A DNA stretch of 64,000 nt. Origin: a virus. Shown one piece after another: positions 6,963 through 9,346 of this stretch; the first letter of the stretch is position 1, and every line of letters starts with the position of its first letter. The notes under the pieces were generated by a model. The model saw only the letters and a program-made list of their open reading frames with translations. It was not told where the DNA came from and did not search any database. The position numbers were made by a program, and so were the translations under genes. The stretch lies in the IMG/VR virus record IMGVR_UViG_3300027798_000016, positions 32,001-96,000 of that record, one strand, 5' to 3'.

Positions 6963-7856
6963 ATGGATAAAGAAAACCCACTCAAGAAGCCCGTTTCGCA
7001 GGCTACTGCCAACCCGTTGGCAAATTTTTACCGTAGACCTGGCACCTATGTCAGTTTACCCAGTAAAGGACGATACTACAGATCAGCTATCAAACTGTCT
7101 GACAATGGAGAACTGGCAGTTTATCCAATGACTGCCAAAGATGAACTAGCACTGAAGAACCCGGATGCCTTACTAAACGGCGAAGCACTGAAACAAGTGT
7201 TGGCCAGTGTAGTGCCGGACATCAGCAATGTTAATGAAATTCCAGCACCCGACATTGATATGATTTTGGTTGCCATGCGTATGGCCAGCTATGGCGATGA
7301 CTTGGATCTAAATGTAAATCACAATTGTGCGGCCAGTGAAGGTAAAAGTCAAAGTGTCACAGTTGGGCTAGGATCAATTTTAGGCACAATGAAAGAGATT
7401 CCAGACGGTTCCGGAGAAGTGGTATTGTCAAACGGTGTCAAAGTGCTGTTACGACCTTACTCACTGGAAAATCAAAGCAAGTTGTTGAGAGTACAGTTTA
7501 CAACCATGCGTCAGTTGCAGGCCATGGAAGCCAATGAAAAGAACACCATTGATCAGAAAGCTGATGTGGCCAACAAAGGTTACGACATGTTGACCAATCT
7601 AAGCCAGGAAATTTTAGCAGGCAGTATCATTGCAGTTGTACTGCCAGACGGAACTGAAGTGACCAATTATGGACACATTTATGATTGGGTCAAGAACTTG
7701 GATCGTGCCAGTGCCGATCGTCTAGATCAAGAAATGAAACTGTTTGCAGATTATGGTATTACACGCACATTGGAAATGACTTGCGACTATTGCAAGGAGA
7801 AGTATACCACTGATATGCTGTTTGACCCAACAAGTTTTTTCGGCGCAGGCTCTTGA
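6963..7856 (+). CDS. Baseplate hub assembly / tail chaperone protein (T4 gp26-like)
   Basis: Motifs LPSKGRYY, VYPMTAKDEL and DIDMILVAMRMASYG; C-terminal CxxC followed by FDPTSFF. Confidence 0.75.
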   Translation: MDKENPLKKPVSQATANPLANFYRRPGTYVSLPSKGRYYRSAIKLSDNGELAVYPMTAKDELALKNPDALLNGEALKQVLASVVPDISNVNEIPAPDIDMILVAMRMASYGDDLDLNVNHNCAASEGKSQSVTVGLGSILGTMKEIPDGSGEVVLSNGVKVLLRPYSLENQSKLLRVQFTTMRQLQAMEANEKNTIDQKADVANKGYDMLTNLSQEILAGSIIAVVLPDGTEVTNYGHIYDWVKNLDRASADRLDQEMKLFADYGITRTLEMTCDYCKEKYTTDMLFDPTSFFGAGS

Positions 7857-8077
7857 TGTTAGGAACCAACGGAGCAAAGATTAGACGCTTCGTTGAAGGT
7901 ATCGAATCTGATGCAAGAGCCCTGATCAAGGAAGTTACTACTTTGAGTGTTTGGGCAACCATAGACCCAGAAACCATTTGGAATATGACTCATTTAGAAA
8001 GAGTTGTGCTATCCGAAGCAGTAAAAGAAAGAACAGAAGCAATGTATGGCAAAAAAGGATTTGCTCGCTCAAGGTGA
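7853..8077 (+). CDS. Probable -1 frameshift extension of the upstream chaperone (G/GT-type), or small gp51-like ORF
   Basis: Lies in the -1 frame of the upstream gene, 12 nt after the slippery heptamer T TTT TTC (7835-7841); no clear Shine-Dalgarno; contains W...ETIWNMTHLER. Confidence 0.65.
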   Translation: MMLGTNGAKIRRFVEGIESDARALIKEVTTLSVWATIDPETIWNMTHLERVVLSEAVKERTEAMYGKKGFARSR

Positions 8078-8729
8078 TTCATTTATCATCTTAGTAGAGC
8101 GATTCTATCGCTCTTGAATTTCGCATTGCTTCGCAATCGCTCATTCAGTTTTTATTGTTTAAGGTTTTAACGGTAAAGTATTGTAATGCAAGTGATGAAA
8201 CATTTTGATTACTTGACACTGATGATTCAGTCACACTTAGCCCTGTTAAGGACTAAGAGAAAACTTGACACCGAAGTCCAAGCCACATCCAACTAAAGAA
8301 ACTTGTTAAAGTAAGGGCGGTCACGCTGTACCCTTTTACACTCATCTTATATGACGCTACCGTATTGACCTAGTTGAAATCGTCGATACAGCATGTAGGT
8401 TGTAATAGTTCACCAGAGCCTACTCATTTTAGCTTTCGTATACTAATCCCAGTTCTTTTCAAGCAATTGAACTTCGTCCTGTGAAGGATAGTGGGCGTTA
8501 GTCTCTGCTACTGCACAGAATTTCCTTCCCCAGCGCAACCCTAGTGCCTGGTTTTATGGGTGTCTAAATATATCGGCGACACTGGCCTATCAGTAGTGAT
8601 CTTGTCGTTGTGAGTTTGCTAATTGAATTTGCGAAATCGCTGTGAGTGTCTACATTGCGTAGTAAATTAGCCAGGATGAGTTATTGTACACTTTAATTAT
8701 CAAATGAGCCAGGTGAGTTATAGCCGTTA
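8078..8729. ncRNA. Candidate large structured non-coding element (ncRNA and/or replication origin)
   Basis: Only large ORF-free gap in the window, with many stem-loops, a cUUCGg tetraloop on the minus strand and short direct repeats; family not recognised. Confidence 0.5.
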
Positions 8730-9158
8730 TTACAGCTTGTTTATTATGTGTGAGCCATGTACACGAACACTAATTTGTCCATTGTAATAATCTGTCGATT
8801 CCAATACTTTTCTATCAAATTGTTCTTTGGCCTCTATGTAAGAGCATACAGCCTTTGAATTACAGTAATGTAGAATCTCTCTAATAAAGTTATCTCTACC
8901 AAGAGATTCTACATCTTTGTTCAACTGATCGTTGCTACCGTAGTATTCTTTCCAGTCTGAGTCAATCTTAGAACGAATACGCTTTTTCTTCTTGACTCCA
9001 TTTTTCTGTTTGACCACTTTATAGGTAGTCTTGGAAAACTTTGCTAACTTTTTGCCAACATACATCCGCTGGTCAGTTTTATTTGTTATAAGATAAACAA
9101 AACCAACGCATTCTTCGGGAAGTACATCTACCACAGTACCTTGATACAGCCAAGTCAT
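8730..9158 (-). CDS. Minimal GIY-YIG (Seg-like) endonuclease
   Basis: GFVYLITN...MYVGKK, YYGS, FIREIL...YIEAKEQ and YYNG motifs of the GIY-YIG catalytic module; 142 aa with no appended DNA-binding domain. Confidence 0.8.
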   Translation of the reverse strand: MTWLYQGTVVDVLPEECVGFVYLITNKTDQRMYVGKKLAKFSKTTYKVVKQKNGVKKKKRIRSKIDSDWKEYYGSNDQLNKDVESLGRDNFIREILHYCNSKAVCSYIEAKEQFDRKVLESTDYYNGQISVRVHGSHIINKL

Positions 9159-9346
9159 TACTTGGGAGTTGACAGGGCTTCTTTCTCGGCTGTAATCTCT
9201 TTACGGCGTTCTTTGATTGCTTTGCTCATTTCTTGTAATGCTTTGCGAGCACGAGCGGCCGCGGCTTTGACACCTTTTGCAGTGAACTTTTCGTTTTCGC
9301 TTTTGTAGTTCTCAAACTGCTCTAACAATGTTTCGTGATTTGACAT
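9158..9346 (-). CDS. Small basic protein, histone H1-like Hc1 family
   Basis: EKFTAKGVKAAAARARKALQEMSKAIKERRKEI resembles the Hc1 N-terminal helical motif. Confidence 0.6.
   Translation of the reverse strand: MSNHETLLEQFENYKSENEKFTAKGVKAAAARARKALQEMSKAIKERRKEITAEKEALSTPK

What the first reader, a model, noticed from the sequence alone, without database searches (positions are those of the whole stretch)
8078..9158. Minimal GIY-YIG nuclease followed by a ~650-nt structured non-coding element: candidate nuclease + RNA system
Seen: this is the only large ORF-free gap in a tightly packed genome, and it begins at the stop codon of a 142-aa GIY-YIG protein with no appended DNA-binding domain. Stems include 8236-8257 (CTTAGTCCT-taac-AGGGCTAAG on the minus strand, where a plus-strand C.A mismatch becomes G.U) and 8264-8282 (closed by a cUUCGg tetraloop on the minus strand). 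Further stems lie at 8313-8335, 8362-8389, 8395-8423, 8451-8473, 8476-8489 and 8560-8582. Strand evidence is mixed, because 8362-8389 and 8476-8489 pair better on the plus strand. The minus strand also carries GCAGAGACUAA (8498-8508), similar to the group I intron J6/7-P7 'R' element. Known: GIY-YIG homing endonucleases normally get specificity from appended domains, and other compact nucleases (IscB with omega/HEARO RNA) use an adjacent RNA. Inference: the gap encodes a large RNA co-transcribed with the nuclease, acting as guide, scaffold or ribozyme-like partner. I do not recognise the family.
Basis: partly seen in the sequence, partly recalled or inferred. Interest (0 to 1): 0.85.

Follow-up and report, generated by a model that had tools for sequence, protein, structure and literature searches.

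The report
Jumbo-phage RNA, likely replication primer
Behind an ordinary small phage DNA-cutting enzyme lies a real, intricately folded RNA gene that is not tied to that enzyme; its anatomy suggests that it grips its own DNA to start copying of these giant virus genomes, which can be tested in cultured relatives.

Summary
The gap holds a real RNA of about 390 nt on the minus strand (8205-8595). Its 5' third is the orphan Rfam motif Polynucleobacter-1; the rest is uncatalogued, with covarying helices, pseudoknots and a kissing loop. The 'group I R element' is a hairpin arm.

The RNA is not the nuclease's guide. It also follows an unrelated PD-(D/E)xK nuclease, and 72%-identical GIY-YIGs occur without it. 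GIY-YIG, PD-(D/E)xK and endonuclease VII replace one another in this slot behind gp47/gp46, so the protein is probably a Holliday-junction resolvase.

The RNA ends in two 7-nt direct repeats that change together by identity, with no partner strand in the RNA. AT-rich DNA and DNA-type mini-hairpins follow. Cultured Rak2-like phages keep a probable homologue in this slot plus 3-4 further co-oriented, widely spaced copies, most with their own promoter, and repeats match within each copy but differ between copies of one genome.

Best reading (about 50%, inferred): a ColE1-RNA-II-like primer/R-loop RNA marking replication origins. Earlier scan notes on other DNA already reported the uncoupled nuclease and the hairpins; none of those shown to me made the repeat or multi-copy link.

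The parts
8730..9158 (-). 142-aa single-domain GIY-YIG nuclease (PF19835 SegE_GIY-YIG; PHROG 447, labelled 'NAD synthetase'); probable Holliday-junction resolvase stand-in; neighbour rather than partner of the RNA
   Evidence: slot exchange with PDDEXK_15 and endonuclease VII
8205..8595 (-). Structured non-coding RNA of about 390 nt ('type I' body), multi-helix with pseudoknots; ends approximate
   Evidence: family HMM aligns at window 8592-8209; mutual information on 152 sequences; pair counts; CM hit 8206-8365, 74 bits, window in the training set
8442..8587 (-). 5' third of the RNA = Rfam RF01718 Polynucleobacter-1
   Evidence: 90.8 bits, gathering score 37
8370..8378 (-). Hairpin loop that kisses 8288-8296 (7 bp in the window)
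   Evidence: covarying columns 208-213 with 285-290; RNAalifold columns 275-280 with 365-370
8313..8335 (-). Invariant core hairpin (GGUAC...ACCGCC) whose loop forms a pseudoknot with the strand just upstream
   Evidence: helix 39-42/56-59 100% paired; pseudoknot 13-19/49-53 93% paired
8288..8296 (-). Kissing partner of the 8370-8378 loop
8263..8271 (-). Direct repeat, copy 1 (GUGUCAAGU)
   Evidence: identity covariation with copy 2
8236..8257 (-). 3' hairpin between the two repeats
   Evidence: 88% of cells paired
8211..8219 (-). Direct repeat, copy 2 (GUGUCAAGU), at the end of the conserved region
8143..8205 (.). AT-rich spacer between the RNA end and the hairpin cluster
   Evidence: sequence; homologues
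8097..8142 (-). Cluster of DNA-type hairpins (C-GAA-G triloop hairpin flanked by GA/GAA, then a second hairpin); probable single-strand DNA signal
8600..8729 (-). Lineage-specific spacer; in most homologues the RNA begins within a few tens of bases of the stop codon
9158..13668 (-). Upstream gene run: late sigma factor, MazG-like protein, gp47, gp46, Hc1-like DNA-binding protein
6963..8077 (+). Convergent baseplate-hub gene and a 74-aa ORF closing the slot

Best explanation
Two neighbouring but separate things. (1) The GIY-YIG is the last enzyme of a recombination gene run (late sigma, gp47, gp46, Hc1) and most likely serves as the phage's branched-DNA/Holliday-junction resolvase. Shown: the slot exchange. 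Inferred: the activity. (2) The RNA is a cis-acting primer-precursor/R-loop RNA that works like ColE1 RNA II. It folds as it is transcribed; the 3' hairpin brings repeat 1 of the RNA next to the polymerase as it copies repeat 2; repeat 1 pairs with the template DNA strand there (hence identity, not complementarity, between the repeats) and nucleates a persistent RNA-DNA hybrid. The displaced non-template strand exposes the AT-rich tract and DNA-type hairpins for helicase/primase loading, and the processed RNA 3' end primes leading-strand synthesis in the direction of most genes. Shown: RNA structure, identity covariation, per-copy matching within genomes, downstream hairpins, promoter motifs and spacing of copies in cultured relatives. 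Inferred: hybrid formation, priming and origin function.
For: Identity covariation: repeat columns 307/358, 308/359 and 311/362 agree in 110 of 110 major-type sequences, 313/364 in 109 of 110. A locus's own two units share 7 nt or more in 133 of 152 cases versus 15% of 3018 cross-locus pairs. No complement at a fixed place in the RNA or within 2.5 kb. No nuclease column predicts repeat position 1 (best 0.25 of 0.99 bits, 76 pairs). Spacing 47-65 nt is continuous, against a helically phased protein site. In cultured Rak2-like phages the repeats match within a copy but differ between copies of one genome (BF: TCGTCAG in 4 copies, CCGTCAG in 1; Munch and Hallingskeid three variants each; 27 of 28 parsed copies clear, 30 examined), which points to matching in cis. 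Seven such genomes hold 4-5 co-oriented copies 52-141 kb apart, more evenly than random in each (P 0.0001-0.08, genomes related); 25 of 28 copies have TGnTATAAT just upstream. C-GN(N)A-G mini-hairpins lie 50-100 nt past the RNA on the non-template strand at 1.09 and 1.47 per 50 nt versus 0.06 and 0.05 background; the GA-hairpin-GAA motif is in 72 of 121 and 85 of 103 loci. RNase HI genes flank the slot RNA in one PDDEXK lineage and in phage Phosso. A paralogue of the PA5oct slot element lies inside ncRNA004, a discrete low-abundance transcript (0.02-0.08% of phage reads; PMC7318152 Table 1). ColE1 precedent: a roughly 550-nt RNA whose rG stretch pairs with a dC stretch of the template (PMC4412123, PMC5043065). 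Resolvase reading: PF19835 present and PF24608 and PF02945 absent in 4 of 4 large records (3 complete); PF19835 absent from 4 cultured relatives that carry an annotated resolvase or its homologue.
Against: No direct evidence of priming, R-loops or origin firing. Fourfold-site GC skew shows no switch at the locus in two complete genomes. In the window's own freshwater clade only one copy per genome was found, and a promoter motif was found upstream in at most 3 of 120 loci. Homology between the window's RNA and the Rak2-like element is only moderately supported: same slot, similar core and 3' module by eye, CM hits at the right places in 2 of 12 Rak-type loci (E 0.023, 0.32), but no nhmmer cross-hit; the PA5oct element was not hit by the type I models. 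RNase H (PF00075) is absent from the 4 large freshwater records (a host enzyme could serve). The elaborate 5' pseudoknots are not explained by priming alone. Repeat switches on the nuclease tree (at least 16, 11 and 8) rest on a poorly resolved tree with only 4 independent supported pairs (p 0.125). RuvC, RusA and Hjc families were not searched, and one distant PF19835 carrier (S-SRM01) also has EndoVII-family matches over the cut-off.
Confidence: 0.5

Rival explanations
1. A trans-acting structural or catalytic RNA (scaffold, ribozyme or protein sponge). The repeats are two equivalent processing or binding sites kept identical by some copying process; the extra copies raise dosage.
For: Highly ornate fold with invariant unpaired nucleotides and several pseudoknots. 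Own late promoter (TATAAATA) in the RNase H lineage. At least four body types share only the 3' module.
Against: Repeat sequence differs between copies in one genome yet matches inside each copy. The only measured paralogue is of low abundance. Even, co-oriented spacing and strand-specific DNA-type hairpins are not needed by a trans RNA. No splice joint in 4 metatranscriptome assemblies (weak, contigs only).
Confidence: 0.22
2. A cis-acting R-loop RNA, but for recombination, packaging or concatemer processing rather than origin priming: the open structure is the entry site for gp46/47 and for whichever resolvase fills the slot.
For: The founding copy stays beside gp47/gp46 and a nuclease throughout the clade and in cultured relatives. 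Nuclease and RNA are adjacent in 107 of 112 type I loci although insertions are common on either side.
Against: The dispersed copies in Rak2-like genomes lie 50 kb or more from the slot's resolvase gene (their own neighbours were not read). Their promoter motif is host sigma-70-like, which suits early events. Adjacency can come from shared transcription.
Confidence: 0.13
3. One reading: the minimal GIY-YIG binds the RNA as guide or scaffold (an IscB/omega-like ribonucleoprotein).
For: Tight adjacency and shared strand. The protein has a long Lys-rich beta-hairpin and no recognition domain.
Against: Same RNA behind an unrelated fold; nuclease without RNA; inverted RNA in L091; RNA type switches at least 14 times on the nuclease tree (shuffled labels 43 or more); no guide or target found; small stand-alone GIY-YIGs are known (T4 EndoII chain of 134 residues).
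Confidence: 0.07
4. A selfish or retro-type element: the repeats allow template jumping by a reverse transcriptase, or are a target-site duplication.
For: Identical short repeats around a variable template-like segment are what template jumping would need (recalled analogy to telomerase and DRT RNAs). Several copies per genome.
Against: No RVT_1 match in 3 complete and 3 partial clade records. Both repeats lie at the 3' end and flank only about 50 nt. The interval has no codon periodicity. Fixed slot and orthologous copy positions across related genomes.
Confidence: 0.08

Closest known systems
Rfam RF01718 Polynucleobacter-1 RNA (Weinberg et al. 2010, PMC2864571)
   Same: Window 8442-8587 is a full-length member (90.8 bits); 19 of 20 homologous loci too.
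   Different: The model covers only the 5' 141 nt of an RNA of about 390 nt. The paper's table lists it as a likely cis-regulatory RNA of 16 sequences from Burkholderiales and fresh water, with no function. Pseudoknots, repeats, phage slot and other body types are outside the model.
ColE1 RNA II primer precursor (PMC5043065, PMC4412123)
   Same: Long non-coding transcript whose fold is required; an RNA segment pairs with the template strand to seed a persistent hybrid; the displaced strand loads helicase; RNase H is involved.
   Different: No sequence relationship was tested or seen; no RNA I-like antisense regulator known; mixed-sequence 7-nt repeats instead of a G/C tract; phage, several copies in some genomes; function here is inferred only.
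T4 R-loop origins oriF/oriG (PMC4412123)
   Same: Promoter plus downstream unwinding element; several origins per genome; T4-like replication genes.
   Different: As described in that passage, T4 origins need a promoter and an unwinding element, not an ornate conserved RNA; here structure, repeats and hairpins are under strong selection.
Phage Holliday-junction resolvases (T4 endonuclease VII; D14/RusA-like PDDEXK_15; the GIY-YIG resolvase SLX1, role recalled)
   Same: Occupy the same slot behind gp46 in BF, GAP32, 121Q, PA5oct and Phosso by their record annotations; mutually exclusive with PF19835 in the records tested.
   Different: The window protein is a GIY-YIG nearer in fold to I-TevI (Z 8.1) than to SLX1 or HIGLE (Z 3.0-3.9); activity untested.
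OMEGA systems (IscB/TnpB with omega or HEARO RNA); group I introns
   Same: Compact nuclease gene beside a large structured RNA.
   Different: No Rfam match, no guide or target, fixed slot, nuclease exchangeable, no interrupted gene.

Membership tests
Rfam RF01718 Polynucleobacter-1 | Score above gathering threshold over the whole model | tested here: met
   90.8 bits versus 37, model 1-141
GIY-YIG superfamily (PF19835) | Profile match, GIY/YIG strands, conserved Tyr/Glu/Asn, GIY-YIG fold | tested here: met
   PF19835 109 bits; invariant Y22, Y33, G35, E109, N126 in 47 sequences; fold Z 8.1 to I-TevI
GIY-YIG homing endonuclease | Appended DNA-recognition domains and sporadic, mobile distribution | tested here: not met
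   142 aa, no second domain; single copy at a fixed slot, 49-82% identity across the aligned clade members
Holliday-junction resolvase | Replaces known resolvases genomically | tested here: met
   same slot, mutual exclusion with PF24608 and PF02945; RuvC, RusA and Hjc not searched
Holliday-junction resolvase | Symmetric cleavage of four-way junctions | not testable with these tools
   needs biochemistry
RNA-guided nuclease (OMEGA-like) | Obligate linkage of nuclease and RNA | tested here: not met
RNA-guided nuclease (OMEGA-like) | Variable guide with a matching target | tested here: not met
   no third copy or complement of the variable repeat at a fixed place within 2.5 kb; outside the locus the 8-mer occurs 3 times in the 125-kb own record, as chance would give
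Group I intron | P3-P7 core (R/S pairing) and an interrupted host gene | tested here: not met
   no CM match at E <= 10; the 'R' motif is a covarying hairpin arm; flanking genes are convergent
ColE1-type primer RNA / R-loop origin | Long structured non-coding transcript | tested here: inconclusive
   structure met; transcription reported only for a PA5oct paralogue of uncertain homology; window RNA region present in metatranscriptome contigs without strand
ColE1-type primer RNA / R-loop origin | Upstream RNA segment identical to a downstream sense-strand segment and matched in cis | tested here: met
ColE1-type primer RNA / R-loop origin | Unwinding element and single-strand signal downstream on the displaced strand | tested here: met
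   AT-rich tract and strand-biased DNA-type hairpins; their DNA-specific stability is recalled, not tested
ColE1-type primer RNA / R-loop origin | Persistent hybrid, RNase H processing and priming of DNA synthesis | not testable with these tools
   skew test uninformative
Retron / DRT / DGR template RNA | Cognate reverse transcriptase | tested here: not met
   PF00078 in 0 of 6 clade records, 3 of them complete; controls rang

The most novel reading that the evidence does not exclude
A family of ornate, pseudoknotted primer RNAs defines the replication origins of Rak2-like and related T4-like jumbo phages: each RNA uses a self-matched 7-nt repeat to invade its own template strand, and 350-kb genomes are copied from up to five evenly spaced, co-oriented RNA-defined origins. 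This would give the orphan Polynucleobacter-1 motif a function and make the GIY-YIG family labelled 'NAD synthetase' a new phage resolvase.
Probability: 0.4. Interest if true: 0.9.

Novelty: new variant of a known kind. Interest (0 to 1): 0.75.

Why it matters
My searches found nothing on where Rak2-like jumbo phages start replication, and Polynucleobacter-1 appears in one paper without a function. If the reading holds, it adds a case of structured-RNA-directed origin firing beside ColE1, with a programmable-looking 7-nt self-recognition step and multi-origin spacing in a virus. It can be tested at once in cultured coliphages whose coordinates are given here. Even if the origin idea fails, a multi-pseudoknot RNA family of about 390 nt with repeats that covary by identity in cis is an unusual object. 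It also suggests a job for a nuclease family present in 420 GenBank phage records, many under the label 'NAD synthetase'.

Tried and rejected
Group I intron: no CM hit, the R-like motif is a hairpin arm. Group II intron, RNase P and tmRNA likenesses noticed by eye (recalled): no Rfam or ARAGORN match. Third copy or complement of the repeat within 2.5 kb or in the RNA: none at a fixed place. Protein code for the repeat: none. Reverse transcriptase: none. Skew switch at the locus: none in G004 and G005; the window's own skew follows gene strand. Extra copies in the freshwater clade: none above noise by nhmmer or CM in G000, G004, G005. Expression: 6 RNA runs hold the stretch; of 4 laid, contigs cover the RNA fully in 1, partly in 2 and barely in 1, with no joint and no strand or level information, and DNA carry-over is possible; not used as support. 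Single-strand folding not significant. Foldseek against PDB gave nothing at E <= 0.001. blastn of the window RNA against GenBank phages: no match. The RNA pattern in prokaryotic genomes gave 11 hits: 7 MAG contigs, 5 of which show the nuclease gene upstream, and 4 actinobacterial hits taken as chance (3 of these checked by HMM, no hit). Sigma-70 scan of the window gap: 1 site versus 3.6 expected. No complex prediction was run. Supplements of PMC7318152 were not read and may give transcript data for the PA5oct slot; for PMC2864571 three supplement look-ups showed the table row and the start of the alignment but no prose on this motif.

Full report
1. Observation. The window is part of a 125-kb record (38% complete) of a T4-like jumbo phage held by freshwater runs. 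On the minus strand run a late sigma factor, gp47, gp46, an Hc1-like protein and the 142-aa ORF at 8730-9158; baseplate-hub genes converge from the other side. The ORF is a single-domain GIY-YIG (PF19835, E 1.7e-31; PHROG 447). Its model (pLDDT 88) is nearest the I-TevI catalytic domain (Z 8.1), then UvrC and T4 EndoII. The 653-nt gap is the largest in the window. Rfam places RF01718 Polynucleobacter-1 at 8442-8587 minus. One paper in the library names this motif; I saw its table row and the start of its alignment, which give no function (PMC2864571: passages and three supplement look-ups).

2. The RNA. Eighty protein-first loci and 119 RNA-pattern loci show conservation running about 250 nt past the Rfam model. 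Mutual information on 152 distinct sequences (about 120 effective) gives nested helices, a kissing-loop pair, a pseudoknot into the invariant GGUAC...ACCGCC hairpin and a pairing of the 5' leader with a hairpin loop. On 49 sequences chosen from 86 non-redundant ones, the core and 3' structure is 91% paired with 133 double changes, above all 500 shuffles and all slid registers (relatedness inflates the shuffle control, and the structure was derived from this family). Variant pairs are G-U on the minus strand. Single-sequence folding is not significant. Only about 8205-8595 is conserved.

3. Is it the nuclease's partner? Adjacency is strong: 19 of 20 protein-first loci, 73 of 74 evaluable RNA-first loci (6 of 80 too short upstream; 39 more had no flank), and 107 of 112 directly adjacent. 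It is not obligate. L037, L038 and L051 carry 72%-identical nucleases with the next ORF overlapping the stop and no RNA (context read for L037 and L051). Five cultured carriers that I read, of 420 records, leave 0-148 bp after the gene. L091 has the RNA inverted. L107 has the RNA behind a PDDEXK_15 nuclease, and a scan with that protein found the type I RNA behind it in 15 of 28 loci (8 full length, several redundant); most of the others have further body types, some after an inserted RNase HI gene. A second body type with the same 3' module (120 hits) has GIY-YIG upstream in 62, PDDEXK in 2 and neither in 3 of 67 evaluable loci. RNA type changes at least 14 times on the nuclease tree. In cultured relatives the slot between gp46 and the baseplate hub holds genes annotated as RusA-like resolvase (PA5oct), Holliday junction resolvase (Phosso) or endonuclease VII (BF, GAP32, 121Q), each beside a large gap. 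Four large records with PF19835 lack PF24608 and PF02945, and four cultured relatives lack PF19835. The simplest reading is non-orthologous replacement of a resolvase; other resolvase families were not searched.

4. The repeats. The 3' module is repeat, hairpin, UGAC-like box, repeat. The two 7-nt copies change together by identity (110 of 110 at three columns, 109 of 110 at a fourth). Own pairs share 7 nt or more in 133 of 152 loci against 15% for mixed pairs. There is no complementary strand in the RNA or nearby, no predictive nuclease residue, no reverse transcriptase, and the spacing is continuous from 47 to 65 nt. Position 1 switches at least 16 times on a weak tree, with only 4 supported independent pairs. 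Identity without a partner is what pairing of the RNA with the template strand of its own locus would produce (inference).

5. Downstream. Hairpins with C-GNA-G or C-GNNA-G loops peak 50-100 nt past the RNA on the sense strand at 17 and 29 times background; a GA-hairpin-GAA motif is in 72 of 121 type I and 85 of 103 type II loci. Such loops are unusually stable in DNA (recalled). The window's copy is at 8097-8142.

6. Cultured relatives. The BF gap has matches in 62 GenBank records of Rak2-like phages, 275 places in all. BF has five co-oriented copies at 30, 93, 174, 259 and 335 kb; six further genomes have 4-5, more evenly spaced than random (P 0.0001-0.08, not independent, copies may be missed). 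Of 30 copies examined 28 parsed; 25 have TGnTATAAT upstream; 27 show a clear 6-8-nt repeat matched within the copy, with different variants inside one genome in BF, XbC2, Munch, Hallingskeid, 121Q and A4 (orthologous copies are not independent events, and GAP32's four parsed copies are alike). Homology to the window's RNA rests on synteny, a similar core and 3' module by eye and weak CM hits at the expected places (BF 30 kb E 0.023, BF 93 kb E 0.32, type II L046 E 0.008; no other hit in 94 kb); nhmmer found no cross-hit. The PA5oct slot element has paralogues, one inside ncRNA004, reported from RNA-seq at 0.02-0.08% of phage reads (PMC7318152, passages and Table 1); its link to the family is an HMM hit of E 0.004 to the Rak2-like 3' module.

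7. Mechanism. ColE1 RNA II is a roughly 550-nt transcript that forms a persistent hybrid, depends on an rG stretch pairing with a dC stretch of the template, is cut by RNase H and exposes the other strand for helicase; T4 oriF and oriG use a promoter and an unwinding element (PMC5043065 and PMC4412123, passages). The element here has each anatomical counterpart, so I put a primer/R-loop origin at about 0.5. Against it: no direct test, no skew switch, one copy and almost no promoter motifs in the window's own clade, no RNase H in the four freshwater records, and an unexplained ornate 5' fold. Rivals: trans-acting RNA 0.22, R-loop for recombination or packaging 0.13, retro-type element 0.08, nuclease-guide complex 0.07.

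8. Novelty. The 5' third is catalogued; the full RNA, its other body types, the cis-matched repeats and the multi-copy arrangement were not found in ten literature searches (listings and abstract starts only, except the papers named). Passages of PMC5259590 on phage CBB mention only terminal repeats; passages of 10.64898/2026.03.30.715471 added nothing. Most subscription journals are outside the library. Earlier scan notes on other DNA had called nuclease and RNA neighbours and had noted the DNA-type hairpins and a multi-copy module in related phages; I tested the first two points here. Verdict: real RNA, partnership not supported, candidate primer RNA family; interest 0.75.

Noticed in passing
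window 8670-8725 (minus): Two near-identical 20-nt direct repeats in the non-conserved spacer behind the nuclease stop codon; shared only with the closest relatives L001-L004.
   Followed up: no
L342, L343, L347, L349, L351 (behind the PDDEXK gene): RNase HI gene inserted between nuclease and RNA; the RNA there has a fourth body type, a late-promoter-like TATAAATA in some, and less perfect repeats.
   Followed up: partly
L364, L366: Third RNA body type with GGCAAUGU or GGCAAAU repeats; no Rfam or HMM hit.
   Followed up: partly
L236, L269, L273: Type II RNA with no gp46, nuclease or baseplate gene within 2.5 kb and neither nuclease family over the cut-off in their 32-47-kb contigs; possibly dispersed extra copies as in Rak2-like phages.
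   Followed up: partly
L091: RNA inverted relative to the nuclease and gp46, with a TATAAGTA late-promoter-like motif ahead of it.
   Followed up: partly
L037, L038, L051: 72%-identical nuclease behind nrdA/nrdB in a different gene context (read for L037 and L051), suggesting transfer of the nuclease without the RNA.
   Followed up: partly
L200, L201, L203, L205-L208: Short or phage-like contigs with the RNA are binned into MAGs labelled Polynucleobacter, Bacteroidetes, Flavobacteriales and Bifidobacterium; these labels should not be read as hosts.
   Followed up: no
G004 and G005 (L373-L408): In G004 fourfold-site GC skew differs between majority-strand and most minority-strand genes (about -0.38 versus -0.04 to -0.21) without a switch, which would fit one-way replication; G005 is less clear. 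The RNA lies on the majority strand in both.
   Followed up: partly
L401 7230-7397 + and L379 13510-13630 -: Weak covariance-model hits (E 0.05, 0.15) on the opposite strand overlapping the RNA 3' end; probably caused by the palindromic hairpin.
   Followed up: no
slot between gp46 and the baseplate hub: Insertion hot spot: variable genes (some look like radical-SAM proteins by eye) enter before the nuclease and after the RNA far more often than between them.
   Followed up: partly
window 9158-9346: Phage-encoded Hc1 (histone H1-like) protein, PF07432 E 4e-14, often in one or two copies between gp46 and the nuclease.
   Followed up: no
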